Shown here: piece after piece, positions 1 through 11,735 of the stretch
Position numbering within the stretch: position 1 is the stretch's first letter
Layout of the letters: each line of letters opens with the position of its first letter
Made by a program: the position numbers and the translations under genes
Assembly (NCBI GenBank): GCA_051294375.1
Contig: JBJCIZ010001278.1
Location: 1 to 11,735, forward strand
Direction of reading: 5' to 3'
DNA from: Paraspadella gotoi
Taxonomy: Eukaryota; Animalia; Chaetognatha
Length of the DNA stretch: 11,735 bases
Notes under the pieces: generated by a model
Told to the model about the DNA's origin: nothing
The model's database searches: none
Seen by the model: the letters and a program-made list of their open reading frames with translations, nothing else

Positions 1-2
1 CG

Positions 3-549
3 AGCGGCCTCTTTAAAGGTGACTTTGAGGAGGACGTCTCTGAACTATTCAACTCGAAATCGGTCCAAAAGCTCATAGAATTAGAGGAGTATGAGAGTGA
101 CCACACACTACACGGACTAACTTTACAAATACGCTACTTATGGCCGAAGCTCCACCATAGCATACCTCACTGCATACGCACTCATAGCGGTAGTAGTCGT
201 CTCACTGGCATTAAAGAAAGGGATTGTACCATTAAATGTCTCGCCCTGGTATTCTCGATTTTCAAGATCTTGGTTGACTACGAGAAGTACCTGAAAGAAT
301 CCAAACTACCGAAGGCACAGCCGTGCTACGAAGATCCTCCGTCACCAAACCGACCCTCCCTCAATCACGTGACATCGAAGAGATTGTGGGCAATAATATC
401 GAGTCCTCAACGCCATCCTCAGCGTTTATGAGGACGTCATGAGACATGGCGCAATGCTTCCGAGAAGGGTGAGGACACCCCTCACCATCGAGGAGCCGTT
501 CAACGACTCCGGAAGAGGCGTCGTGGCCCTTCCCCACTTCCGACGCTGA
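3..549 (+). CDS. 3' part of a hypothetical protein gene (5'-truncated by the window, probable frameshift errors near 360-400)
   Basis: Frame +3 is stop-free from 3 to TGA 429-431 (SGLFKGDFEEDVSELFNSKSVQKLIELEEYESDH...KILVDYEKYLKESKLPKAQPCYEDPP...). Frame +1 is open 397-549 (VLNAILSVYEDVMRHGAMLPRRVRTPLTIEEPFNDSGRGVVALPHFRR*), ending just before the repeat array. Not listed in the supplied ORF track. No family recognised. Confidence 0.55.
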
Positions 550-561
550 ACGCGACAGCAA

Positions 562-1028
562 CCCCGCAGCGCCTATTATTCCCAACTGCGCTTTTCTTTA
601 TTATTCCATTAGCATTTGTATTACACCCCGCAGCGCCTATTACTCCTAATTGCGCTTTTTCCTTATTATTCCATTAGCAATTGTATTGCATCCGTCAGCG
701 CCTATTACTCCCCAATCGCGCTTCCTTTTTATTATTCCAAATTCCATCAATTATTCCATCAGCGCCTATTACCCCCAATCGCGCTTCTTTTTATTATTCC
801 AAATTCCATTTCTAAACAATTATTCCATCAGCGCCTATTACTCCCAATCGCGCTTCTTTTTTTTATTATTCCAAATTCCATTTATAAACAATTATTCCGT
901 CAGCGCCTATTATTCCCAATTGCGCTTTTTTTATTATTCCATTAGCAATTACATTATATCCATCCTTACCTATTGCTCCCAATTACGCCTTTTTTTGATT
1001 ATTCCAATTGCTTCTTAGCAATTACATT
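562..1028. repeat. Tandem minisatellite, 7 units of 63-72 bp (core CAGCGCCTATTA(C/T)TCCCAAT(C/T)GCGCTT..TTATTATTCCA)
   Basis: CAGCGCCTATTA starts at 567, 631, 696, 760, 829 and 901, and a diverged unit (CCTTACCTATTGCTCCCAATTACGCC) starts at ~964. Spacings are 64, 65, 64, 69, 72 and 63 bp. Confidence 0.95.
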
Positions 1029-1122
1029 AAATCAAATAGATAACTACTCTTTCTTCTGATTATTTTACTAATTTATTCCATCAACGTTTGCCACAACGAC
1101 CTAACATTTTTTCGCTTTTGAT

Positions 1123-3866
1123 TTAGGACCTAGTTTTTTTGCCCAACCTTTCTCCAACAGTCTTGCTAAGAACGGTATCGGAGCTTTGTACGTGGACGCT
1201 AAAAATATAAACTAACTTTAAGGCTTTGATGGGACGGTCACACCCGTCATGACTGTTTTCTCCCTGCGCGCCGCAAGGCGGGCGTTCTCTGGTACACACG
1301 GCCGGGTTCCAGGTAAGAATTGGTTTGGAGAGAAAATCGTCGGGAAACTCCAAATTTTTTTTCGGCATGCGGTTAACGAAGGGTTACTTGGTTTGTACAC
1401 CCGGTCTCCTCTTTAGGCGGCAAGACCCCCTTAATCGAAAACCCTTTATAGTACAGTACCCGCCTACGGTTGCGTCCCAATTTTCTTTTGGCAGGTGGAA
1501 TTGGTTTGTGATTCGTTTGGTCATTGTACGTCTCTTTTTGGTATTTTCTCCCTTTTAAAATAAAGGTAACAGGGTGACTGGAAAGGGGAGCTCAGCGGCA
1601 ACGCAGGGGATTACCATGTTTATGCTGTGTTTATTTTTTGGGCGAGGGGGTTTGAGGGTCTCGGCCCATCCGTTGCTGGTTGGTCTTTTCTTAGTTTACC
1701 ACTGGCCGTTAGGTTATTCTCATGTAACGGCAGTAACGGATGCTTTAAACATAAAAATGACCAAATAAAAGTAAGTTTTTCTCTATTATTGCATCAAGTT
1801 TCAAGCGAAACTGATTTTGTTTTTAGGTAACGATTTTTTTGGTTTATGGGTACAGTTTCGGGGCTCTCTAGTATTTGCTGATAGGAATTGATTTCGTTTT
1901 TAGGTTAGTTTAAATATTTTATTTTGCAACCTAACACGAACATTAGGGTAGATAAAGGTATTTAATTCTTTTTTTTGATTGTACAGTGTATTATTTTCAA
2001 GAATGATCGTTTACAGAGGAATTCAACGGGCGAAAAGATTAAGTTGGGTCAGTGAGATCCAAGATAGTATTTTTATATTTCTGTCCTCAATTTACCTACC
2101 TTTTCCCGTAGGGGCTTCGAGATATAAGGTTTCGTGTCGTAGTACAGGTTGTGCGGCCTTCCTTTATAATATTTGGGTGGTAAGGTCAAGGGAGTCGAAA
2201 ACGTACGCAAGAATCTTCAAAGATTCCGGGCTTCCGTTATCGGGTTGGTCCTCATCGAGGGAACGTTTTAGGGAGGGGGATGCTTGAAGAAATGCTGCTG
2301 TGACATGGACTTGCTGAAGAATTGCTTGGATCGGTCTCTTTGATGCTGGGTCCACCTGCAGGGGTAAGGAAAATTTATTTTTTTTGAGATTGTCGTCATG
2401 CGCTCATGGTCGTTCGGTGATTATTCAGGAAAGGCAACTCTTTGGCCTCCGCATGTTTCGTCTGGAAGGTCGATGGTTCTCTGACATTGTCTCTAAAAAA
2501 AAGTCCGGTTCAAATGTCAACCTTTGAGACCTTATTCGTTCCTTGCGGGGGCCAGAAAGTGGGGCATTTTCGGTAAACGTTATATCGTTTTACCAATATC
2601 CGAAAACAACCCATGGTATTTTTTTCTGTCACCCTTCGATTCCGTCTAAGAATTCGGATTTTGGTTCGGCAGGTCTTGCCGTAATTTTCCTATGCAATTC
2701 GGGGCCTCCATGTACAATTTCACGTTCCTTTTTTAGTTTGGCTACTTTTCAAAGGGATTCGGTGTTCTTGTAACATATGTTCAGTCTGAGATTCTGGGCC
2801 TCCAGGAGACAAGTTCACCGTCTTCGCGGGCTTTTGAACCTAAAAGTGGGAACAATTAATACGGGTATTTAACAGCTCGGCCACCCGGGGGTCAGTTATA
2901 ACCGGCCTTTGCAAAACTTCGAATAAAAAGGGCCTTTACTTACCTTGCATTTTTTGACTTTAGTTGGTTTGTTATTTTATTGCCGAGTCCAAGCGCTTGA
3001 CCAAAAAATCATTTTATATTGTGTTTAAAAGTCAGTTTAGTTAGTCAAGAATATTTTAGCTTCCTCTTCGTCTCATTCCCCCCTGGCTTGTAGTTCAATT
3101 ATTTCTATTGTGGGTTCCTTTCATTGTTTCGTTTTTTCAGTTAATGTGCGGCAATAACGTTTTTTTTTTTTAAAGTTTTCAGAGAAAACCAGGATTGGCC
3201 AAGTTTTTAGCCGTCGTATTTCGTTTTGGGGATTACGGTGGATAAACACTCAGGTTATGTATTGTACTCACGCCTGTCGTCTCTACAGGTAATTTTTGGT
3301 TTTTCTATTGTCCGTAGTTCAGAAAACGGGTTCGTTCCAGGCAAATCGTCTGACACGTGCGGCTTACGCCAAATTCAGCCAGGCTCAGAAGTTGCGTCGA
3401 GCGGCAACCTTCCGGGCCGTTTTCGTAGAAACCGAGCGAACAAAAAAGGTTGTCTACATTAGTAGAGTACCTGTCGTTTTTTGGTGTGGACAAAATTACT
3501 TTTTAGGAACTTACCGACATACCGTAGTGTTTTGATGTTACATCACGCCGACGGGTTTTTTCTAATATCTTTCCTCTCATTGTGTAATACCCGCACCCAA
3601 CTGGGTTTCGATCTTCAACACTGGATAAACGTAACTTGACAAGCTCCCTACAATATAAAGCGTCGTGGAAGAGGGTTGTCGCCCGGCAGATTTGTCGTCT
3701 GCCGGTACGGTTCAACCCGCATTTCCTCAATCTCAACGACCATTTGTCAGTATTTTTTCTGTTGTCAGTTTTTCGTCAGTATCTTTGTTCTTCTGGATCT
3801 TTTTGGTAAGAGTTATTACAAGAACGTCCGCTGGGCGCAGTTTTATTGCATCACTGCTTCAAGCAT
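1123..3866 (-). CDS. Long hypothetical protein-coding region (one or a few genes) broken by apparent sequencing frameshifts
   Basis: Minus strand is A/purine-rich and yields successive protein-like fragments in shifting frames from an AAAAATG (ATG 3866-3864): SSDAIKLRPADVLVITLTKKIQKNKDTDEKLTTEKIL / MVVEIEEMRVEPYRQ / KEPTIEIIELQARGE / ELHRKITARPAEPKSEFLDGIE / RPIQAILQQVHVTAAFLQASPSLKRSLDEDQPDNGSPESLKILAYVFDSLDLTTQIL / KELNTFIYPNVRVRLQNKIFKL / PFVNRMPKKNLEFPDDFLSKPILTWNPAV. Gene number and boundaries are uncertain, and true pseudogenisation cannot be excluded. Confidence 0.5.
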
Positions 3867-3973
3867 TTTTAATCAATCCTCCTTTCTCCTTCTCATCAGT
3901 CCCCACTGCGGATCGCCGTGAATATTTTAAGAGTGTGTATGTTCTTAGACATGCTTCAGTATGTCGCTATGCT
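3867..3973. promoter_or_regulatory. Putative bidirectional promoter region between divergent genes
   Basis: About 105 bp between the minus-strand ATG (3866) and the plus-strand ATG (3974). It contains TATTTTAA (3923-3930) and TCAGT (3956-3960), plus another TCAGT at 3896-3900. The motifs are short and could be chance. Confidence 0.3.
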
Positions 3974-4993
3974 ATGGCGACATACACCAATCATGCAGCG
4001 GTGGGTGCGGCTTTACGAAATAATACAAACGTTATCTTAACATATGTCGGAGAGGAAAATCCCTACGCTTCTCTACGCCTTTTCCCCCATTACGACATAG
4101 GATCCTCTCTCTATCGCTCTTTCTTCACCATACTGACATCAGAAGCAATGCGTATTCCATCCTAGACATCGGCGACACCGAACACTTAGGCTCTTTCTTT
4201 TTATAGTTTCTACTAAAGTTACAGCGGATATTTCCGAAAGGGCAAAGCGTCGGTACAAAGGCTGCTGGATTTCTGAATGGGTGCCGTGATTTTCGATGGC
4301 ATCTCGAGTAAGTATGGCCTTATCCGAACTGGGGCCACGTGGCATCTTTTCAGATCTCAAAAGCTTGTCCACTGGGTTTTAAGTTCGTTTCTCAGATGAC
4401 AGCATTAAGAATTAAGCTTCTATTCAAAGATCTATCTTTCGTCGGATTAATTCTTATTTGTGTGATCGCTGGTTTGGTGGACTTTCTATGAAGAAAATGG
4501 AGGTGCATACTTCTTTTTTGTAATATTGGCTTCAGAAAAAACAAGTAAGGAATAAGACCACTTATATTCTATAATATACTATACTTTTGCTGGAGTTTAT
4601 GTATTCTAAAATGTTGACTTGCCCAGAGACTTCCTAACTTTACGAATCTCCCCTCTACAATTCAAGGCCTACCTACGATCTTCTTCACTAACAAGCTACT
4701 AAAAGTATCTACAAGGGGCCTTACCTTTTACAAGAAACACTACTTACAGATCTTCTGTTATCAAGTACCTGGGCTTCGTAGATCCGTCGTTCCTTTCGGC
4801 CTTAAGCCGACGTTCATCTACTCGAGACTTTTGTCCGTCATCATCTTTTCCCAGGGGCGTCTTGACCGGCTTGTCCATCGGGTCTTTCTTCTGCGCCATT
4901 ATAACCGATTCCATCTGGTTCTCAATGCGTGCAGAAAATGTCCATGCTCAGTTAGTGAATTCCAAAGGACGCCACTTCTCCCGAATCCTTTAA
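3974..4993 (+). CDS. Hypothetical protein gene, frameshifted in this sequence; possible intron 4545-4626
   Basis: ATG 3974 gives MATYTNHAAVGAALRNNTNVILTYVGEENPYASLRLFPHYDIG, then fragments in shifting frames: HTDIRSNAYSILDIGDTEHLGSFF / IVSTKVTADISERAKRRYKGCWISE / AVIFDGISSKYGLIRTGA / PTIFFTNKLLKV / GVLTGLSIGSFFCAIITDSIWFSMRAENVHAQLVNSKGRHFSRIL* (TAA 4991-4993). Frame +1 is also stop-free from 4618 to 5025. No family recognised. Confidence 0.5.
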
Positions 4994-7900
4994 CTTTAAA
5001 AAAAAAACAAGAGGTGTTAAAATAACGCTTTTTTCACACTCGTAAAAAAGAGATAAAAAAATCTTAAAACGAAATATGTTACAAAGAAAAAAAAAGTAAA
5101 TATAAAACCGTAAAATAACTTCTTGCAAAACTAAACATCATTCCCCGACGGCTTGTTCAAAATTAGGTATCGTTGGGAACATATTTAAATATCTTATATT
5201 ATCCAAAAAACAAACAAACTTTCCTCCGTCCTCTCTCTATTTTTATTGTCTCCTTTTCTCTCTCTCTTTTCTCTTCTTTTAATTTTTATTGTAGCCTTTC
5301 TTCTCCACACCTTCTATGGATAATAAACGTATAAATGTTCTTCCACCACAGGAAAACAGACTTTTCTCTGTAAAAAAAAAGATTATTTGAAAAACTTTAA
5401 AAAAAAATAAAACAGGAAAACCGGATTTATTATCCAAATGTGTTAGAAAAAGGGAAAAATAAAAAAACTTTATAAAAAAAAAAAACGGCAAAAACTTTTT
5501 ATTATACTAAAAAAGGGGCAAGTTTTAAAAAAACCAACCGATAAACAAAACGGGGGGAACTTTTTTCTAAGATTTAAAAAGTAATAAAAAAAAAAAAACG
5601 GTTAAAATAACCAAACCGAGGGCGGGCAATTTACCGGAACTACATATATTCCAAAAGAAGATTAAACCAAAACTTTAAAAAACAAAAAGAAAAAACGCCT
5701 TATATATCCAATGTCTAAATACAAAAGAGTTGAAAAAAATTTTGTCTTTTAATAACACCGGGGGAAAAACGAATTTATTTTCAAAAAAAAGACCAGGAAA
5801 TTAAACAAACGTTAACTAAAAATTAACTTCTGCAAAAATAGAACATTTTCATCGAGGTTTGATAAAAAATTGACGGTGGAGGAAACCCAAGTTTATTAAA
5901 GTATACTTTTTGTATTCAAAAAAAAAGAAAGCAAAAGAACAAAAATTTCGCGCGTACTGTGTTTATTTTTGTAGTAATTTTCCTTTCCTTTTTCTCTCTC
6001 TTTTCTCTTTGAAATTTTATGTTAAGCTTTTTTTCGTGCCTCCACCACCCTATCAATAAGATAAAAAAAAACGTTTTAAAAAATACACCAGGAAAACGAC
6101 TTTTTCTTCGTTTAAAAAAGATATTGAAAAAAAAAACTTTAAAAATAAATTACATGAAAATTACGATTTTTTTCAATGTTAAAAAAAGAAATAAAAAAAA
6201 CTTGAAAAAAAAAACGGCAAAAACGTTTTTTCCCAATTGTTAAAGAAAAAAATATTAAAAATCAAAAAACCACCGGATTTAAAAACGGAAACTTTTTTTC
6301 TAAAGTAAAAAAGTGATTAAAAAAACGTTAAATACAAGAGCGGCCAAGAACCGATATTTCCCAAAGAGATTAACAACTTTAAAATAAACAAAGGAAAAAA
6401 ACTTTTCTTTTTCCAATTGTATAACAAAAAAAAGATTAAAAAAAATTTCTTTGAAAACACCGGGAAAAAACGATATTTTCAAAGGGAAAAAAGAAATAAA
6501 AAAAACGTTTAAATACTTCTGCAAAATAACCATCATCGAGGGTTTTCTGGTTAAATGGAGGGGTTGAGGACCAAAGTATTTAATTTATTTTTTATTCAAA
6601 ACCAAACCAAAATTTTTTTCCTCTCTTTATTGGTATATTTGTTCTCCCTTCTCTCTTCTCTTTTCTTTCTTTAATTTATTGTTTAGGCTTTTCTTCATCT
6701 ACCCTGTGCAAATAGATAAAAAAAACGTTAAAATATTTTAACAAACCAGGGAAACAGGTTTTTGCTCGCTTAAAAAAAAGATATTGAAAACTTTAAAAAA
6801 TAACAAGAAAAAAACGGATTTTCATGTAATATAAAAAAGAAATAAAAACTTTTTATAAAAAAAAACGGCAAAAACGTTTTTTTCCCAAATTAAGAAAAAA
6901 AAATAATATAATCAGAAAAAACACCCGATAAAACGGACTTTCTAAAAGTAATAAAAAAGTTTGATAAAAAACGTTTAAATCAACCAGCGGGGTAGACCGA
7001 TAATTTCAAAAAAGGAATAACAAACTTTAAAAAAAAAACAAAGAAAAAAAAACCGCCTTTTCCAATTGTAAAAGAGAGAGAGTATAAAATTTCTTAAGAG
7101 AACCACCGGGAAAAAACCGAATTTATTTTTAAAAGAAAAAAGAAATAAAAAACGTTTAAATACTTCTGGCAAAAATAAAAATAAAAACATCATCGAGGTT
7201 GTTTAAAATTGGGTGTTCTTGGGGTGAGGGAACAGTTATTAAATATCTTTTGTGTCAGAAAATAAACAAATAGAAAACAAATTTTCCCTCTTCTTTTTAT
7301 TTTATTGTTTCCTTTCTTCTCTCTTTCTCTTTTTAATTTTTTATGTTTAGCTTTTCTTCTCCACCTTCTTCAATAGATAAAAAAGAACGGTTTAAATTTA
7401 CCACCCAGAAAAAATCGGGACTTTTTTCTCTGTTCAAAAAAGGATATGGAGAAAAAAAAAACTTTAAAAAATAAATGTAACCAGGAAAACGATTCCATGT
7501 AAAAAAAGGAGTTAAAAAAAAAAAGACCACCGATAAACGGACTTTTCTAAATGTAAAAGTAATTGATAAAAATGTTAAATACACCCGGCAAGGACGATAA
7601 TTTCCCCAAAGAGTAACAACTTAAAAAAAGAGAGAAGAAAAAGAGAGAAGAAAACGCTTTTTTTCCAATGGTGAAAAAAAGGAGATTGATTAAAAAATTT
7701 CTTTAAAAAACCACCGGAACATAATTGATTATTTTCAAAAAAAATGAAATTAAAAACGTTAGAATACTCTGCAAAGATAATTAAAACTCATCGAGGGTTG
7801 TTAAAGAGATGAGGGTGATGGAGGGGACAGGTTATTAAATATTCTTTTTATTTTCAAAAACAAAACAAATTTCCTCTTTTATTTTAAGATTGGTTGTCTT

Positions 7901-10073
7901 GCCTTTCTCCTCTCTTCTTTTTTCCTTTAATGTGTTAGAGCTATCTCTCACTCTCATTAACAGAAAGAATTAAAAAAACGTTAGAAATAATTATACACAG
8001 TTATAAAGAAAGACAGGGAAACTTTTTTCTCTGTAAAAAGAATATGGAAACTTTAAAACAAAAACAGAAAAAACGATTTTTTTTTAAAAATGGTAATAAA
8101 AAGAAATTTAAAAACTTGAGAAAGGAAGAAAGAAAGGCGAACGACGGTTTTTTTCCATTGTTTTAAAAAGAGTTAAAAAACACCCCCGATTAAAAACGGG
8201 CTTTTCTTAAAGTAAAAAAGTGATTAAAAAAAACGTTTTTAAATTGTTCGTAAACAGGGGGCGGCAGCGTGGAACGATTTACTCTCTCACAAAAGAGATA
8301 AACAACTTTAAAAAAAAACAAAAATAAAAAAAACGCTTTTTTCAATTAAAAAGAATAAAAAACAAAATCTACAAACCCCACAACCGGGGAAAACGGATAT
8401 TTTTAAAGAAAAAAAGAAATTAAAAAAACGTTAAAATACTTCTGCAAAAAATTAACATAATTTCGAGGGTTGTTAAAATTTTTTGGGTTGAGGGAATTCC
8501 CAGTTTATTAAATATTTCTTTTATTCAAAAACAAAAAAACAAATTTTTCCTCTTCTTTTATTTTATGGTCTCCTTCCTCTCTCTCTGTTTCTCTTTAAAT
8601 TTTAATTGTAGGGCTTCTTTCTTCTCAATATAGATTAAAAAAAAGAAACGTCTTTTAGATAACACCAGGAAAAAAACGTAAACTTTTTCATTGTAAAAAA
8701 AAAAAATATGAAAAATTTTAAAAAATTAACAAAGGGAAAAAACAGGTTGCCAAGTGTAAAAAAGAAGGAAACTCAAAAAAAAAAACTTTTAAAAAAAAAC
8801 TAAACGCAAACACGTCTGTTTGTTTCCAATTGTACAAAAAAAAGAGAGTTAACGGTAAAGAGAACCCACCGATTTAAACACGGGGCTGTGTTATCTGAGA
8901 ATATAAGGTTAGAAAAAAGCAGTAATAAAATGTTAAAAAAATGTGACACCGGCAGGAACCGGATAATTTTCCAAAAGGATGAGAGAGATAGAACAAACTT
9001 TAAAACAAAAGAGAAGAAACGGCTTTCCAATAGTTAAAAAGGAGATAAAAAAAAATTATCTAAAAAACGATATTTTTCAAGAGGGAAAAAGAAAGGGAAA
9101 TTTGTGGAGAGAAAGAACGTTAGAAAAATACGTGCGTGTGACCAAAAATAAACCAATTTTCATCGAGGTTGGTTAAAAATTGAAAGTGGGATTGTGGACA
9201 GTGTATTTAAAATATCTTATACATAAAAAAAACAATAACATTTTCCTTCTTTTTTTTATGTCTCCTATCCTTACTCTTCTTTTCATTTTTCTCTTAACCT
9301 AAATTTATTATATTTTTGTTAGGGCTTTCCTCTCACTCTTGTGTCTTAAGATTAAAAAACGTTATAAAATTATTAACACGCAAGAAAAAACAACTTTTTA
9401 TCTTCTGTAAAAAGATTATTGAAAAATATATTAAAAATAACAGGGAAAATACGATTTTTTTTCCAAATTATGTTTTTTAAAAAAAAGAAATAAATAGAAA
9501 AACTTTAAAAAAATAAGGGGCAAACAGTTTTTTTCCAAATATAAAAAAAGTAGTATAAAAGAAAACCCAGCCGAGGATTAAAAAACGGGGATACTTGTTC
9601 TAAGAAGTAAAATTGTGATAAGAAACGGGTGTGAAAGTGACCAAAGTCGGGGGCAGGGACGATATATTTCCCAAAAACCCCGGAAATAACAACTTTAAAC
9701 AAAGGGGAGAAACGCTTTTATTTTTCCCAATGTAAAAAATGGACAAGATAAAAAAATTTCTTAAGAGAAAAAGAAACACCGGCGAGAACGATATTTATAT
9801 ATTAAAAGATATCAAAAGAAAATTAAAAAAAAACGTTTAAATTTTACTTCTTTGGGGGCAAATAAATAAACCATTCATTCGAGGTTAGTGTTTTAAATGG
9901 ATGGTGAGGGACAAAGTTTATTAAATATCTTTTTATTTCAAAACAAAACAAATTTCCTTCTCTTGTTAATTTATAATATGTCTCTCGCTCCTTCTTCTTC
10001 TACTTGTAAAAATTTTTTATATGTAGCTTTCTCTTTTCTCACTCTTCAACTCGGTATAAAAAAAAACGTTAAG
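4992..10073 (+). repeat. Higher-order tandem array: ~7.5 units of 598-715 raw bp, each with ~8 subrepeats of ~48 bp plus a ~150 bp spacer
   Basis: Anchor TACTTCTGCAAAATAA(A)CATCATCGAGG; the CATCGAGG-like core lies at ~5139, 5850, 6534, 7191, 7789, ~8461, 9161 and ~9876 (spacings 711, 684, 657, 598, 672, 700, 715). Subrepeat pattern is ATAAAAAC(G/T)TTAAA.ACACC(A/G)GAAAACGA(C/T)TTTTC(C/T)AATGTAAAAGA(A/G). Confidence 0.95.
4992..10073 (+). CDS. Putative tandemly duplicated coding exons encoding ~16-aa repeats (shortened LRR-like motif)
   Basis: Approximate exons: 4992-5166 (partial), 5320-5875, 6061-6562, 6716-7223, 7377-7814, ~7968-8486, 8634-9185, 9351-9903, 10056-10073 (partial). Manual consensus, with homopolymer lengths chosen by me: IKTLNTPENDFSSVKD IETLKITENDFSNVKE IKTLKTAxNVFSNVKE LKTPINDFSKVKV IKTLNTPADDISKE ITTLKTRENAFSNVKE IKFLKTPENDISKEKE IKTLNTSANNIIEVVKIE. 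Differences between subrepeats include synonymous pairs ACG/ACT, GAC/GAT, TCT/TCC/TCA, CCA/CCG and GAA/GAG. Confidence 0.6.
7224..7376 (+). other. Representative putative GT-AG spliceosomal intron of the array (8 copies)
   Basis: Begins GTGAGG (7224; also clean at 9904), contains a long pyrimidine tract (TTTCCTTTCTTCTCTCTTTCTCTTTT) and ends CCTTCTTCAATAG (7376). Homologous segments lie at ~5167-5319, 5876-6060, 6563-6715, 7815-7967, 8487-8633, 9186-9350 and 9904-10055, mostly ~150 raw bp. Confidence 0.55.
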
Positions 10074-10075
10074 AT

Positions 10076-10930
10076 TCTCTATCTGGGGGTGGAGGTTAAT
10101 TCTGGGTGTCTACTTTAAACGGGAAAAAGGCCGAAAAAAAGAAGAAGGCAAAAATGTGGGAAATACTGTATTGTACTACTAAAAGGCAGGAAAAAAAAGG
10201 TGTACAGAAAAAACGGGAGGGAAAAATCGGAAGGAGCGGAGAAGGGAGAAAGTAGAAGAGAGAGAAGGACTAGAGGAAGGAAGGAAAAAAAAAACTGGTT
10301 GGAGCCTCGAGCCCTGGTGCTAGGAGGAGGAAGAGGAGGGTGAGGGAAATGCGTGGATGACCGAGGACACCGAGACTCGCGCTCGGGGCTGGTTTTGGTC
10401 GTTGTGCCCCCCCTCTTGGCCCGAGGGATGGCGTTCGACGGGCCCCGAATGGCCGCGTCGCGACATTCGTGGTGGCTGCGTGTGTGTCGGTGTGTCCTAG
10501 AGTGTGTGTGGTGCGTGCATGGGAAGAAGGGTGGGAAAGAAAAGAAAGGAAGGAAAAAGGGGTACATTTGTCCAATAACTATGGCAAAGCGTGGGGGTGA
10601 GAAAAAAAAAAGAAAAAAAAAAAAACGGTGGCAATGGGAGAGGGGGGAAAAGCAGGGGGGGAAAAGGCATGACGCCGGGGGGAAGGGGTATAGGGGAGGT
10701 AATGCAATCGAATGTGATAAATGCGAGTAAATGTAATATATTTGTTAAACGTATTTGTTAGTGGTGGTATTATGATAGGAAAAAGTGTCGAACTAATCAA
10801 AAAAACGAACGTGACGGATAAAATGTAACAGTATTTTGGGATAAATGGAAGAGAAGAGGGAGGAAAAAAAAGAAGAAAAAGAACTTGAATGTACGCGAAT
10901 AAATGTAGTTTGAATTTGAAGGAATAAATG
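10076..10930. other. Purine-rich low-complexity region containing a GC/CpG-rich island (~10300-10520) with a GT-rich tail
   Basis: Runs of GA/GGA/AAAG flank a GC-rich segment (GACCGAGGACACCGAGACTCGCGCTCGGGGC...GGCCGCGTCGCGAC) followed by GTGTGTGT-type sequence at ~10478-10517. Function unknown. Confidence 0.6.
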
Positions 10931-11735
10931 GAGACAATCAAAAAAAAAAAAGGCTGCTAATTGGGGTAGTAATAGCCAGGGCAATGGAATCATAATGTAA
11001 TTTGCAAGAAGCATGGTGGAATAATATCAAAAAGGCGCAATTGGGAGTAATAGGTACGCCGGATATGGATAATTGTGATATGCTAAGAAGCAATTGGAAT
11101 AATCATATAAAGAGGCGTAATTGGGAGTAATGAGTGTACGGAGATGGATATAATGTAATGCTGATAGAAAGCAATTGAGAATAATCAAAAAGGCGTAATT
11201 GGTAGAGTCAGAGAATAAGTAACGAAGGGATATAATGTATTATCTGCCTAAGAGCAATTGGAATAATCAAATATGCGACATAAATTGGGAGAGTTATATA
11301 GGTACGAATGGACTAATAATGTAATTGCTAAAAGAAGCAATTGCCGAATACATCCAATAGAGGGCGTATTTGGGTGAAGTATAGGTTACGAATGGAAAAA
11401 TGTAATTTTGCTAATCAAAGAGAGCAAATTAGGAATAATCTCAAAAAAAGGACAGTAATTGGGAGTAATAGGTACGAGTATGGGATATATGTAATTTGCT
11501 AAGAGGATTGGAATAATCAAAAGCAATACATGGGGAGATAATGATTAGGTACGATATGGGAGACTCAAAAATGTAATTGCTAAGAGCAATTGTGAATATA
11601 ATTAAAAGGGCAGAGTGCGGTAATTCAGTAATAGGTACGACATGGAAATGAATGTAATGCTAAAGAGCAATTGGAATTAAATTCACAAAAAAAAGGTCAT
11701 CGTAATTGGGGAGTAATAGGTTACTGAATGGTATA
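10930..11735. repeat. Tandem repeat, ~10 noisy copies of a ~70 bp unit, inverted relative to 942-1028; runs off the window end
   Basis: Consensus AATTGGGAGTAATAGGTACGAATGGATATAATGTAATTGCTAAGAGCAATTGGAATAATCAAAAAGGCGT. The ATTGGG..GTAAT anchor recurs at ~10960, 11040, 11120, ~11198, ~11284, ~11368, 11458, ~11530, ~11622 and 11705 (~80 raw bp). Its reverse complement matches 942-1028 (TTAGCAATTACATTATATCCATCCTTACCTATTGCTCCCAATTACGCCTTTTTTTGATTATTCCAATTGCTTCTTAGCAATTACATTA). Confidence 0.93.

What the first reader, a model, noticed from the sequence alone, without database searches (positions are those of the whole stretch)
5167..10055. Array units look like tandemly amplified symmetric (phase 0-0) exon-intron cassettes
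Seen: every repeat block is preceded by a pyrimidine tract, usually ending ..CAATAG or a close variant, immediately before ATA AAA ACG TTA (clear at 6715 and 7376, similar at 6060, 8633, 9350). It is followed by a GTGAGG-like motif (clear at 7224 and 9904). The spacer is a fairly constant ~150 raw bp. The TAG is in frame just before the first codon, so the block has no start of its own. Established: AG|GTRAG and (Y)nNYAG are canonical spliceosomal signals, and symmetric exons can be duplicated or skipped without a frameshift. Inference: a spliced gene whose repeat domain grows by whole exon-intron duplication, and whose repeat number might be tuned by exon skipping or unequal crossover. The donor phase rests on a noisy consensus (ATT GAG|GTGAGG).
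Basis: partly seen in the sequence, partly recalled or inferred. Interest (0 to 1): 0.75.

Follow-up and report, generated by a model that had tools for sequence, protein, structure and literature searches.

The report
High-copy satellite with intron-like spacer
A unit of about 510 bases, repeated head to tail and abundant in independent DNA sequencing runs, is built from 49-base sub-repeats that do not fit the three-letter code plus a spacer with intron-like ends, so it is likely non-coding satellite DNA rather than a row of protein-coding exons, although splicing is untested.

Summary
The array is real: 7 whole and 2 partial units at 4986-10075. The window copy is an unpolished, insertion-rich long-read stretch; units differ by only about 3% substitutions. 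Short-read contigs from 4 DNA runs hold the block at hundreds to thousands of times flank depth. The corrected unit (about 510 nt) is eight A-rich monomers (42-50 nt, 77% alike; two are 49 nt by short reads) plus a 125-nt pyrimidine-rich spacer: the signature of a complex higher-order satellite. The spacer does start near GTGAG and end in TAG on one strand, more than shuffles give. Splicing was not tested. Best reading: non-coding satellite, possibly grown from an intron-bearing sequence (0.55). Coding cassette (0.2) would be a known design (spider MaSp2, Schistosoma SmPoMuc). The scan noted similar arrays in other genomes.

The parts
4986..10075 (+). Whole tandem array: 7 full units plus a partial block at each end; unpolished, insertion-rich sequence
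4986..5166 (+). Partial first block (last three to four monomers only); the array starts in mid-block with no acceptor before it
5167..5319 (+). Spacer 1 (raw 153 nt); both ends degraded in this copy
5320..5875 (+). Block 1 (raw 556 nt)
5876..6060 (+). Spacer 2 (raw 185 nt), ends in AG
6061..6560 (+). Block 2 (raw 500 nt); two monomers corrected by short-read contigs to 49 nt each (from 6296 and from 6469)
   Evidence: tables 4 and 7
6561..6715 (+). Spacer 3 (raw 155 nt), ends in TAG
6716..7214 (+). Block 3 (raw 499 nt)
7215..7376 (+). Spacer 4 (raw 162 nt); GTGAGG at 7224, CAATAG at 7371-7376
7377..7814 (+). Block 4 (raw 438 nt); lacks about one monomer (best single deletion 52 nt)
7815..7967 (+). 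Spacer 5 (raw 153 nt), ends in AG
7968..8486 (+). Block 5 (raw 519 nt)
8487..8633 (+). Spacer 6 (raw 147 nt), ends in TAG
8634..9189 (+). Block 6 (raw 556 nt)
9190..9350 (+). Spacer 7 (raw 161 nt), ends in AG
9351..9899 (+). Block 7 (raw 549 nt)
9900..10055 (+). Spacer 8 (raw 156 nt); GTGAGG at 9904
10056..10075 (+). First 20 nt of a further block; then unrelated purine-rich sequence

Best explanation
This is likely a non-coding, complex higher-order satellite: a unit of about 510 nt, made of eight diverged A-rich monomers of about 49 nt and one unrelated pyrimidine-rich spacer of about 125 nt, is repeated head to tail in near-identical copies. Inferred history: a 49-nt minisatellite diverged to about 77% identity; a spacer with intron-like ends came to lie inside one monomer, either as a real intron of an ancestral transcript or as captured DNA; the whole unit was then amplified and homogenised by unequal exchange or rolling-circle copying to hundreds or more copies. 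Exchange between neighbouring monomers likely still happens (copy 4 lacks one). The splice-like ends would then be a relic or chance and not needed for the array. Shown: unit anatomy, near-identity of units, two 49-nt monomers, high abundance of block sequence. Inferred: non-coding state, history, mechanism.
For: Monomers within a unit are 69-86% alike, median 77%, while copies differ from the unit consensus by 2.8% substitutions, in spacer and block alike, close to the fitted read error of 1-2%. That matches the higher-order pattern in a review (70-90% within, over 95% between; complex units often carry extraneous elements; PMC5615363, passages). Monomer spacings in the best template are 50, 49, 42, 49, 42, 50, 49; the two 49s at 6296 and 6469 follow from short-read contigs. 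Each monomer has stops in two of three + frames, and the best template has no stop-free run above 65 codons on +. Variation between monomers is 0.105 at third, 0.149 at first and 0.132 at second positions of the only open frame. Summed contig depth at 4 block positions in 4 runs is 67 to 6087 times the depth of the left flank, above 300 in 14 of 16 cells. The spacer is not decayed monomer (115 of 500 shuffles reach its score). The array starts in mid-block beside multi-copy sequence. Copy 4 of 7 lacks about 50 nt; the other 6 do not prefer a long deletion.
Against: The spacer has GTGAG near its start (94% of likelihood weight), a 71-87% pyrimidine tract and a terminal AG on one strand, which shuffles rarely give. 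Cutting GT..AG out rejoins the two halves of a monomer fairly well (rank 96 of 4550 cuts). The three short-read-corrected stretches each keep an open frame, and the one monomer that would be read two bases out of register is the only one lacking that frame's stop. Fully open, 3n, phase-0 versions of the block exist within the read uncertainty (32 of 200,000 random length choices), and the data do not weigh against them. Summed depth is not a copy number, by the tool's own warning, and it refers to block sequence only.
Confidence: 0.55

Rival explanations
1. One reading: each block is a coding exon of about 127-130 codons and each spacer an intron, so the array encodes a long Lys/Asn/Phe-rich repeat protein that grows by whole exon-intron duplication. 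The 49-nt monomers would be read in shifting frames, kept open by compensating indels.
For: One-sided splice-like ends; the cut rejoins a monomer; an open frame in each short-read-corrected stretch; the junction from monomer 5 to 8 is slightly favoured open (0.16-0.20 against 0.11 flat); published precedents with homogenised small introns (PMC9779670, PMC2576457; passages).
Confidence: 0.2
2. The array is part of a long non-coding transcript and the spacer is a working intron, so blocks are spliced together but not translated; phase is then irrelevant.
For: Explains both the splice-like ends on one strand and the 49-nt monomers with stops.
Against: The donor's exon side is weak or unresolved (AG before GTGAG has 6% of the weight); a second acceptor-like TAG lies about 21 nt upstream and the minus strand also has one GTRAG and two weaker acceptor-like sites; the best-restoring cuts are not GT..AG.
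Confidence: 0.17
3. The head-to-tail order is an artefact of one poor long read or of assembly, and the genome holds the pieces in another arrangement.
For: The stretch has a raw-read error profile (about 30-37% inserted, 3% deleted, 3% substituted) while 78-1005 is near exact; both array edges are abrupt; no listed contig spans a whole unit.
Against: Block sequence is very deep in 4 of 4 runs laid, from 2 studies; copy 4 has a clean monomer-sized deletion that re-reading one molecule would not give; units all point the same way, unlike a missed hairpin (recalled platform behaviour); the right end is not a fold-back of the left flank.
Confidence: 0.05

Closest known systems
Complex higher-order-repeat satellites (alpha-satellite-type hierarchy; complex units of beetles and mammals), PMC5615363, passages seen
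   Same: Monomers 69-86% alike within a unit, units about 97% alike, head-to-tail order, one extraneous segment per unit, high abundance.
   Different: The extraneous segment has intron-like ends on one strand; monomers are short (about 49 nt); chromosomal place unknown.
Argiope MaSp2 silk genes, PMC9779670, passages seen
   Same: Ensemble repeats of several sub-repeats set off by small, nearly identical introns (97.6% mean within a gene); amplification of whole exon-intron units.
   Different: There the exons are coding with codon-sized repeats, introns are mapped by RNA reads and terminal domains flank the array; here monomers are 49 nt, no open frame or splicing is shown, and abundance is far higher.
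Schistosoma mansoni SmPoMuc exon 2 repeats, PMC2576457, passages seen
   Same: [quoted passage not shown]
   Different: 27-nt exon in a 1-kb unit, at most about 20 repeats per gene, 13 further exons downstream; here the block is most of the unit and no unique exon is in view.

Membership tests
Complex higher-order satellite DNA | Head-to-tail array of multi-monomer units | tested here: met
   7 whole and 2 partial units, eight monomers each
Complex higher-order satellite DNA | Monomers 70-90% alike within a unit, units over 95% alike | tested here: met
   69-86%, median 77%; 2.8% substitutions per copy including read error
Complex higher-order satellite DNA | High genomic abundance | tested here: met
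   Summed depth 67-6087 times the flank at 4 block positions in 4 runs; rough, not a copy number, block only
Complex higher-order satellite DNA | No protein-coding frame | tested here: inconclusive
   Best template has stops, but open versions lie within the uncertainty
Complex higher-order satellite DNA | Long arrays in heterochromatin or at centromeres | not testable with these tools
   No genome held for this window
Tandem exon-intron cassette genes (MaSp2, SmPoMuc type) | Homogenised block-plus-spacer units | tested here: met
Tandem exon-intron cassette genes (MaSp2, SmPoMuc type) | GT donor, pyrimidine tract and AG acceptor at the spacer ends | tested here: inconclusive
   GTGAG 94% of weight, AG before it 6%; AG at the border in 6 of 8 copies; a second TAG 21 nt upstream
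Tandem exon-intron cassette genes (MaSp2, SmPoMuc type) | Exon stop-free and a multiple of three (same phase at both ends) | tested here: inconclusive
   Posterior about equal to flat value for phase 0 and phase 1, zero for phase 2; donor phase 0.10-0.13 against 0.09
Tandem exon-intron cassette genes (MaSp2, SmPoMuc type) | Repeats inside the exon come in whole codons and vary mostly at silent sites | tested here: not met
   Two monomers are 49 nt by short reads; no third-position excess
Tandem exon-intron cassette genes (MaSp2, SmPoMuc type) | Unique first and last exons flank the array | tested here: inconclusive
   Array starts in mid-block and ends 20 nt into a block, but both edges may be read or assembly joins
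Tandem exon-intron cassette genes (MaSp2, SmPoMuc type) | Spliced transcripts join exon to exon | not tested

The most novel reading that the evidence does not exclude
Probability: 0.1. Interest if true: 0.75.

Novelty: new member of a known kind. Interest (0 to 1): 0.25.

Why it matters
As a satellite it is ordinary in kind. A major tandem repeat is then a direct candidate to probe at those centromeres. As a coding cassette array it would repeat a design known from spider silk and schistosome mucins; only the scale and the non-triplet monomers would be new.

Tried and rejected
No own genome is held. Sequencing runs: 6 DNA runs listed with shares of 0.06-0.07; no RNA holder listed, which says nothing on expression. 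Bins that lie mostly in spacers had far lower depth than block bins (X5: 254, 8 and 50 against 5,272-14,095); the tool says such dips are no finding, so whether the spacer is as abundant as the block stays open. Bins without cover in 2116-2585, 3291-3525 and 3761-4230 are likewise no evidence. Pattern scans: metagenome 1 match, L001, an unrelated phage-like contig, rejected as chance; viral 0 and 0; prokaryote genomes 0. Protein searches with an alignment of 6 noisy block translations: none of 7,990 longer and none of 1,747 near-length candidates scored; the queries are frameshifted, so this is weak. A 12-row alignment was not searched. Pfam: 18, 55 and 2 proteins, no hit at a curated cut-off. 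Rfam on 1-7050: 0. Plasmids and solved structures for the 4200-4990 flank: nothing significant. The Atlas gave no answer. My first hand-built template with long open stretches used lengths chosen with the frame in mind and is not evidence. A 150-codon, Phe-rich stop-free run on the minus strand of the best template was set aside: its posterior median is about 100 codons, it never spans a unit in 0 of 3,000 sampled templates, and T-rich strands have few stops. Fold-back of the right end onto the left flank rejected (score 11 against 10.6 shuffled). The run-length model got 17 of 23 known runs right on the data it was fitted to, too few to fix a frame over eight or more uncertain runs. Shared substitutions between copies: 10 against 2.7 expected; not interpreted, as alignment slips give the same. 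Literature: 7 searches; 'chaetognath' with 'satellite DNA' listed 1 paper, on Merlin transposons (listing only). I read no supplements; the table of repeats enriched at centromeres in PMC12460157 may bear on the centromere idea.
Full report
What is in the window. The + strand holds seven whole units and two partial ones between about 4986 and 10075. Raw copies align to each other at 63-68% identity with many gaps. Each unit is an A-rich block (51% A) and a T/C-rich spacer (68% pyrimidine). The literal motifs are rarer than the wording suggests: CAATAG ends 1 of 8 spacers, TAG 3 of 8, AG 6 of 8; GTGAGG is exact in 2 of 8 and never has AG directly before it.

The divergence is read noise. Contigs of four short-read DNA runs (at most 3 samples, 2 studies) were laid on 1-7050. 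The stretch 78-1005 is matched by one 933-nt contig with 7 other letters and 7 gaps, so that part is polished. In the array nearly all listed differences are letters that the window has in excess. A pair model fitted to short-read-corrected stretches gave about 20% same-base insertions, 8% other insertions, 6% deletions and 1% substitutions (refit 2%). This is the profile of an unpolished single-pass long read (platform knowledge recalled). Against the best template, copies show 2.8% substitutions in spacer and in block alike. So the units are near-identical and the window cannot show their exact letters. Copy 4 differs for real: it lacks about one monomer (best single deletion 52 nt, log-likelihood 79 against -2 without; 0 of the other 6 copies prefer a long deletion).

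The array is abundant. Block sequence was found in 4 of 4 runs laid. Summed depth at four block positions is 67 to 6087 times the depth of the left-flank contig, above 300 in 14 of 16 cells; one contig alone gives 630 in X6 and two give 1130 in X5. The tool warns that summed depth is no copy number; the round values suggest a cap (my inference), and the flank itself has paralogs. I read it only as hundreds or more, and only for the block.

Anatomy of the corrected unit. The best template is 511 nt: block 388, spacer 123 counted from GTGAG; sampled templates run 507-518, and the method tends to overcall runs (19 of 47 too long, 3 too short), so about 500-515. The block is eight monomers; spacings are 50, 49, 42, 49, 42, 50, 49, and monomers are 69-86% alike. 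Two spacings follow from short reads by hand: 6296 to 6349 less 4 excess letters, and 6469 to 6524 less 6, both 49 (tables 4 and 7). The eighth monomer is split by the spacer, which is not itself decayed monomer (115 of 500 shuffles reach its score).

Are the ends splice sites? Shuffles put G|GTRAG near the border in 0.15% of 20,000, and a YAG at the other border as well in 0.04%, an optimistic figure for the reasons given. Cutting GT..AG out ranks 96 of 4550 cuts at restoring a monomer; the best cuts are not GT..AG. A second acceptor-like TAG lies about 21 nt upstream. The ends are therefore intron-like beyond simple chance, with the phase unresolved.

Is the block a coding exon? Every monomer has stops in two of three + frames, so a 49-nt period runs into a stop unless indels compensate. 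Against: the best template has stops in all frames (longest + run 65 codons), and third positions do not vary more than others (0.105 against 0.149 and 0.132). Weighting all length options by their likelihood, an open 3n phase-0 block has probability 2e-5 to 9e-5, against 8e-5 under flat weights; phase 1 gives 2e-4 against 1e-4; phase 2 is closed. The noisy copies thus carry no information on the frame either way. The verdict rests on the 49-nt monomers, the scale and the setting.

Setting. The array starts in mid-block right after sequence that is multi-copy in the short reads (4231-4935) and stops 20 nt into a block before purine-rich low-complexity sequence. No unique exon is in view, but either edge could be a read or assembly join.

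Comparison. The hierarchy matches higher-order satellites as reviewed in PMC5615363 (passages): 70-90% within, over 95% between, often with extraneous elements. Earlier notes of this scan describe like arrays in other genomes, some called real exons and one called a splice-signal-rich non-coding satellite; these are unchecked leads. For PMC12460157 I saw passages only.

Verdict. Observation partly confirmed; interpretation partly supported. Non-coding complex satellite 0.55, coding exon-intron array 0.2, spliced non-coding array 0.17, artefact of order 0.05. New member of a known kind either way. Interest 0.25. One accurate unit sequence and one RNA mapping would settle it.

Noticed in passing
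window 561-1006 (+) and about 10913-11735 (-): The same 65-72-nt minisatellite lies at both ends of the window in opposite directions: about 7 polished copies on the left, about 10 noisy copies on the right. Similarity does not run on into the left copy's flank, so it is likely a second locus, not a fold-back.
   Followed up: partly
window 3-431 (+), second frame 121-294: Open end of a reading frame with paralogs in the short reads (about 14 differences in 80 nt). Weak match to unnamed protein P0002 (E 4.9e-4, 39% over 98 aa) and to two fish repeat proteins over about 35 residues. P0002 looks to me like an envelope-type glycoprotein of an LTR retroelement (recalled resemblance; no Pfam hit). 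A hydrophobic stretch lies in another frame, so the gene looks broken.
   Followed up: partly
window 4231-4990: Multi-copy sequence beside the array (about 20 times flank depth at 4701-4935 in 4 of 4 runs). One frame holds a KYLG word that recalls LINE reverse transcriptase (recalled motif); Pfam, PDB and plasmid searches gave nothing significant.
   Followed up: partly
window 424-450: A cluster of 7 other letters and 7 gaps against the covering contig in 4 of 4 runs, inside otherwise exact sequence: a local assembly error, so the stop at 429-431 is not reliable.
   Followed up: no
window 10076-10900: Purine-rich low-complexity sequence (GC skew up to 0.62), likely a low-quality read tail joining the array to the right minisatellite.
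   Followed up: no
array block, monomers 3 and 5: Both short monomers lack about 7 nt (42 against 49 nt), at different places; a 7-nt step may underlie the 49-nt monomer, but lag 7 is not clearly above background.
   Followed up: partly
L001 3422-3721 (-): Chance pattern match in an unrelated phage-like contig; the frame looks like a 2-oxoglutarate/Fe oxygenase (recalled resemblance).
   Followed up: no
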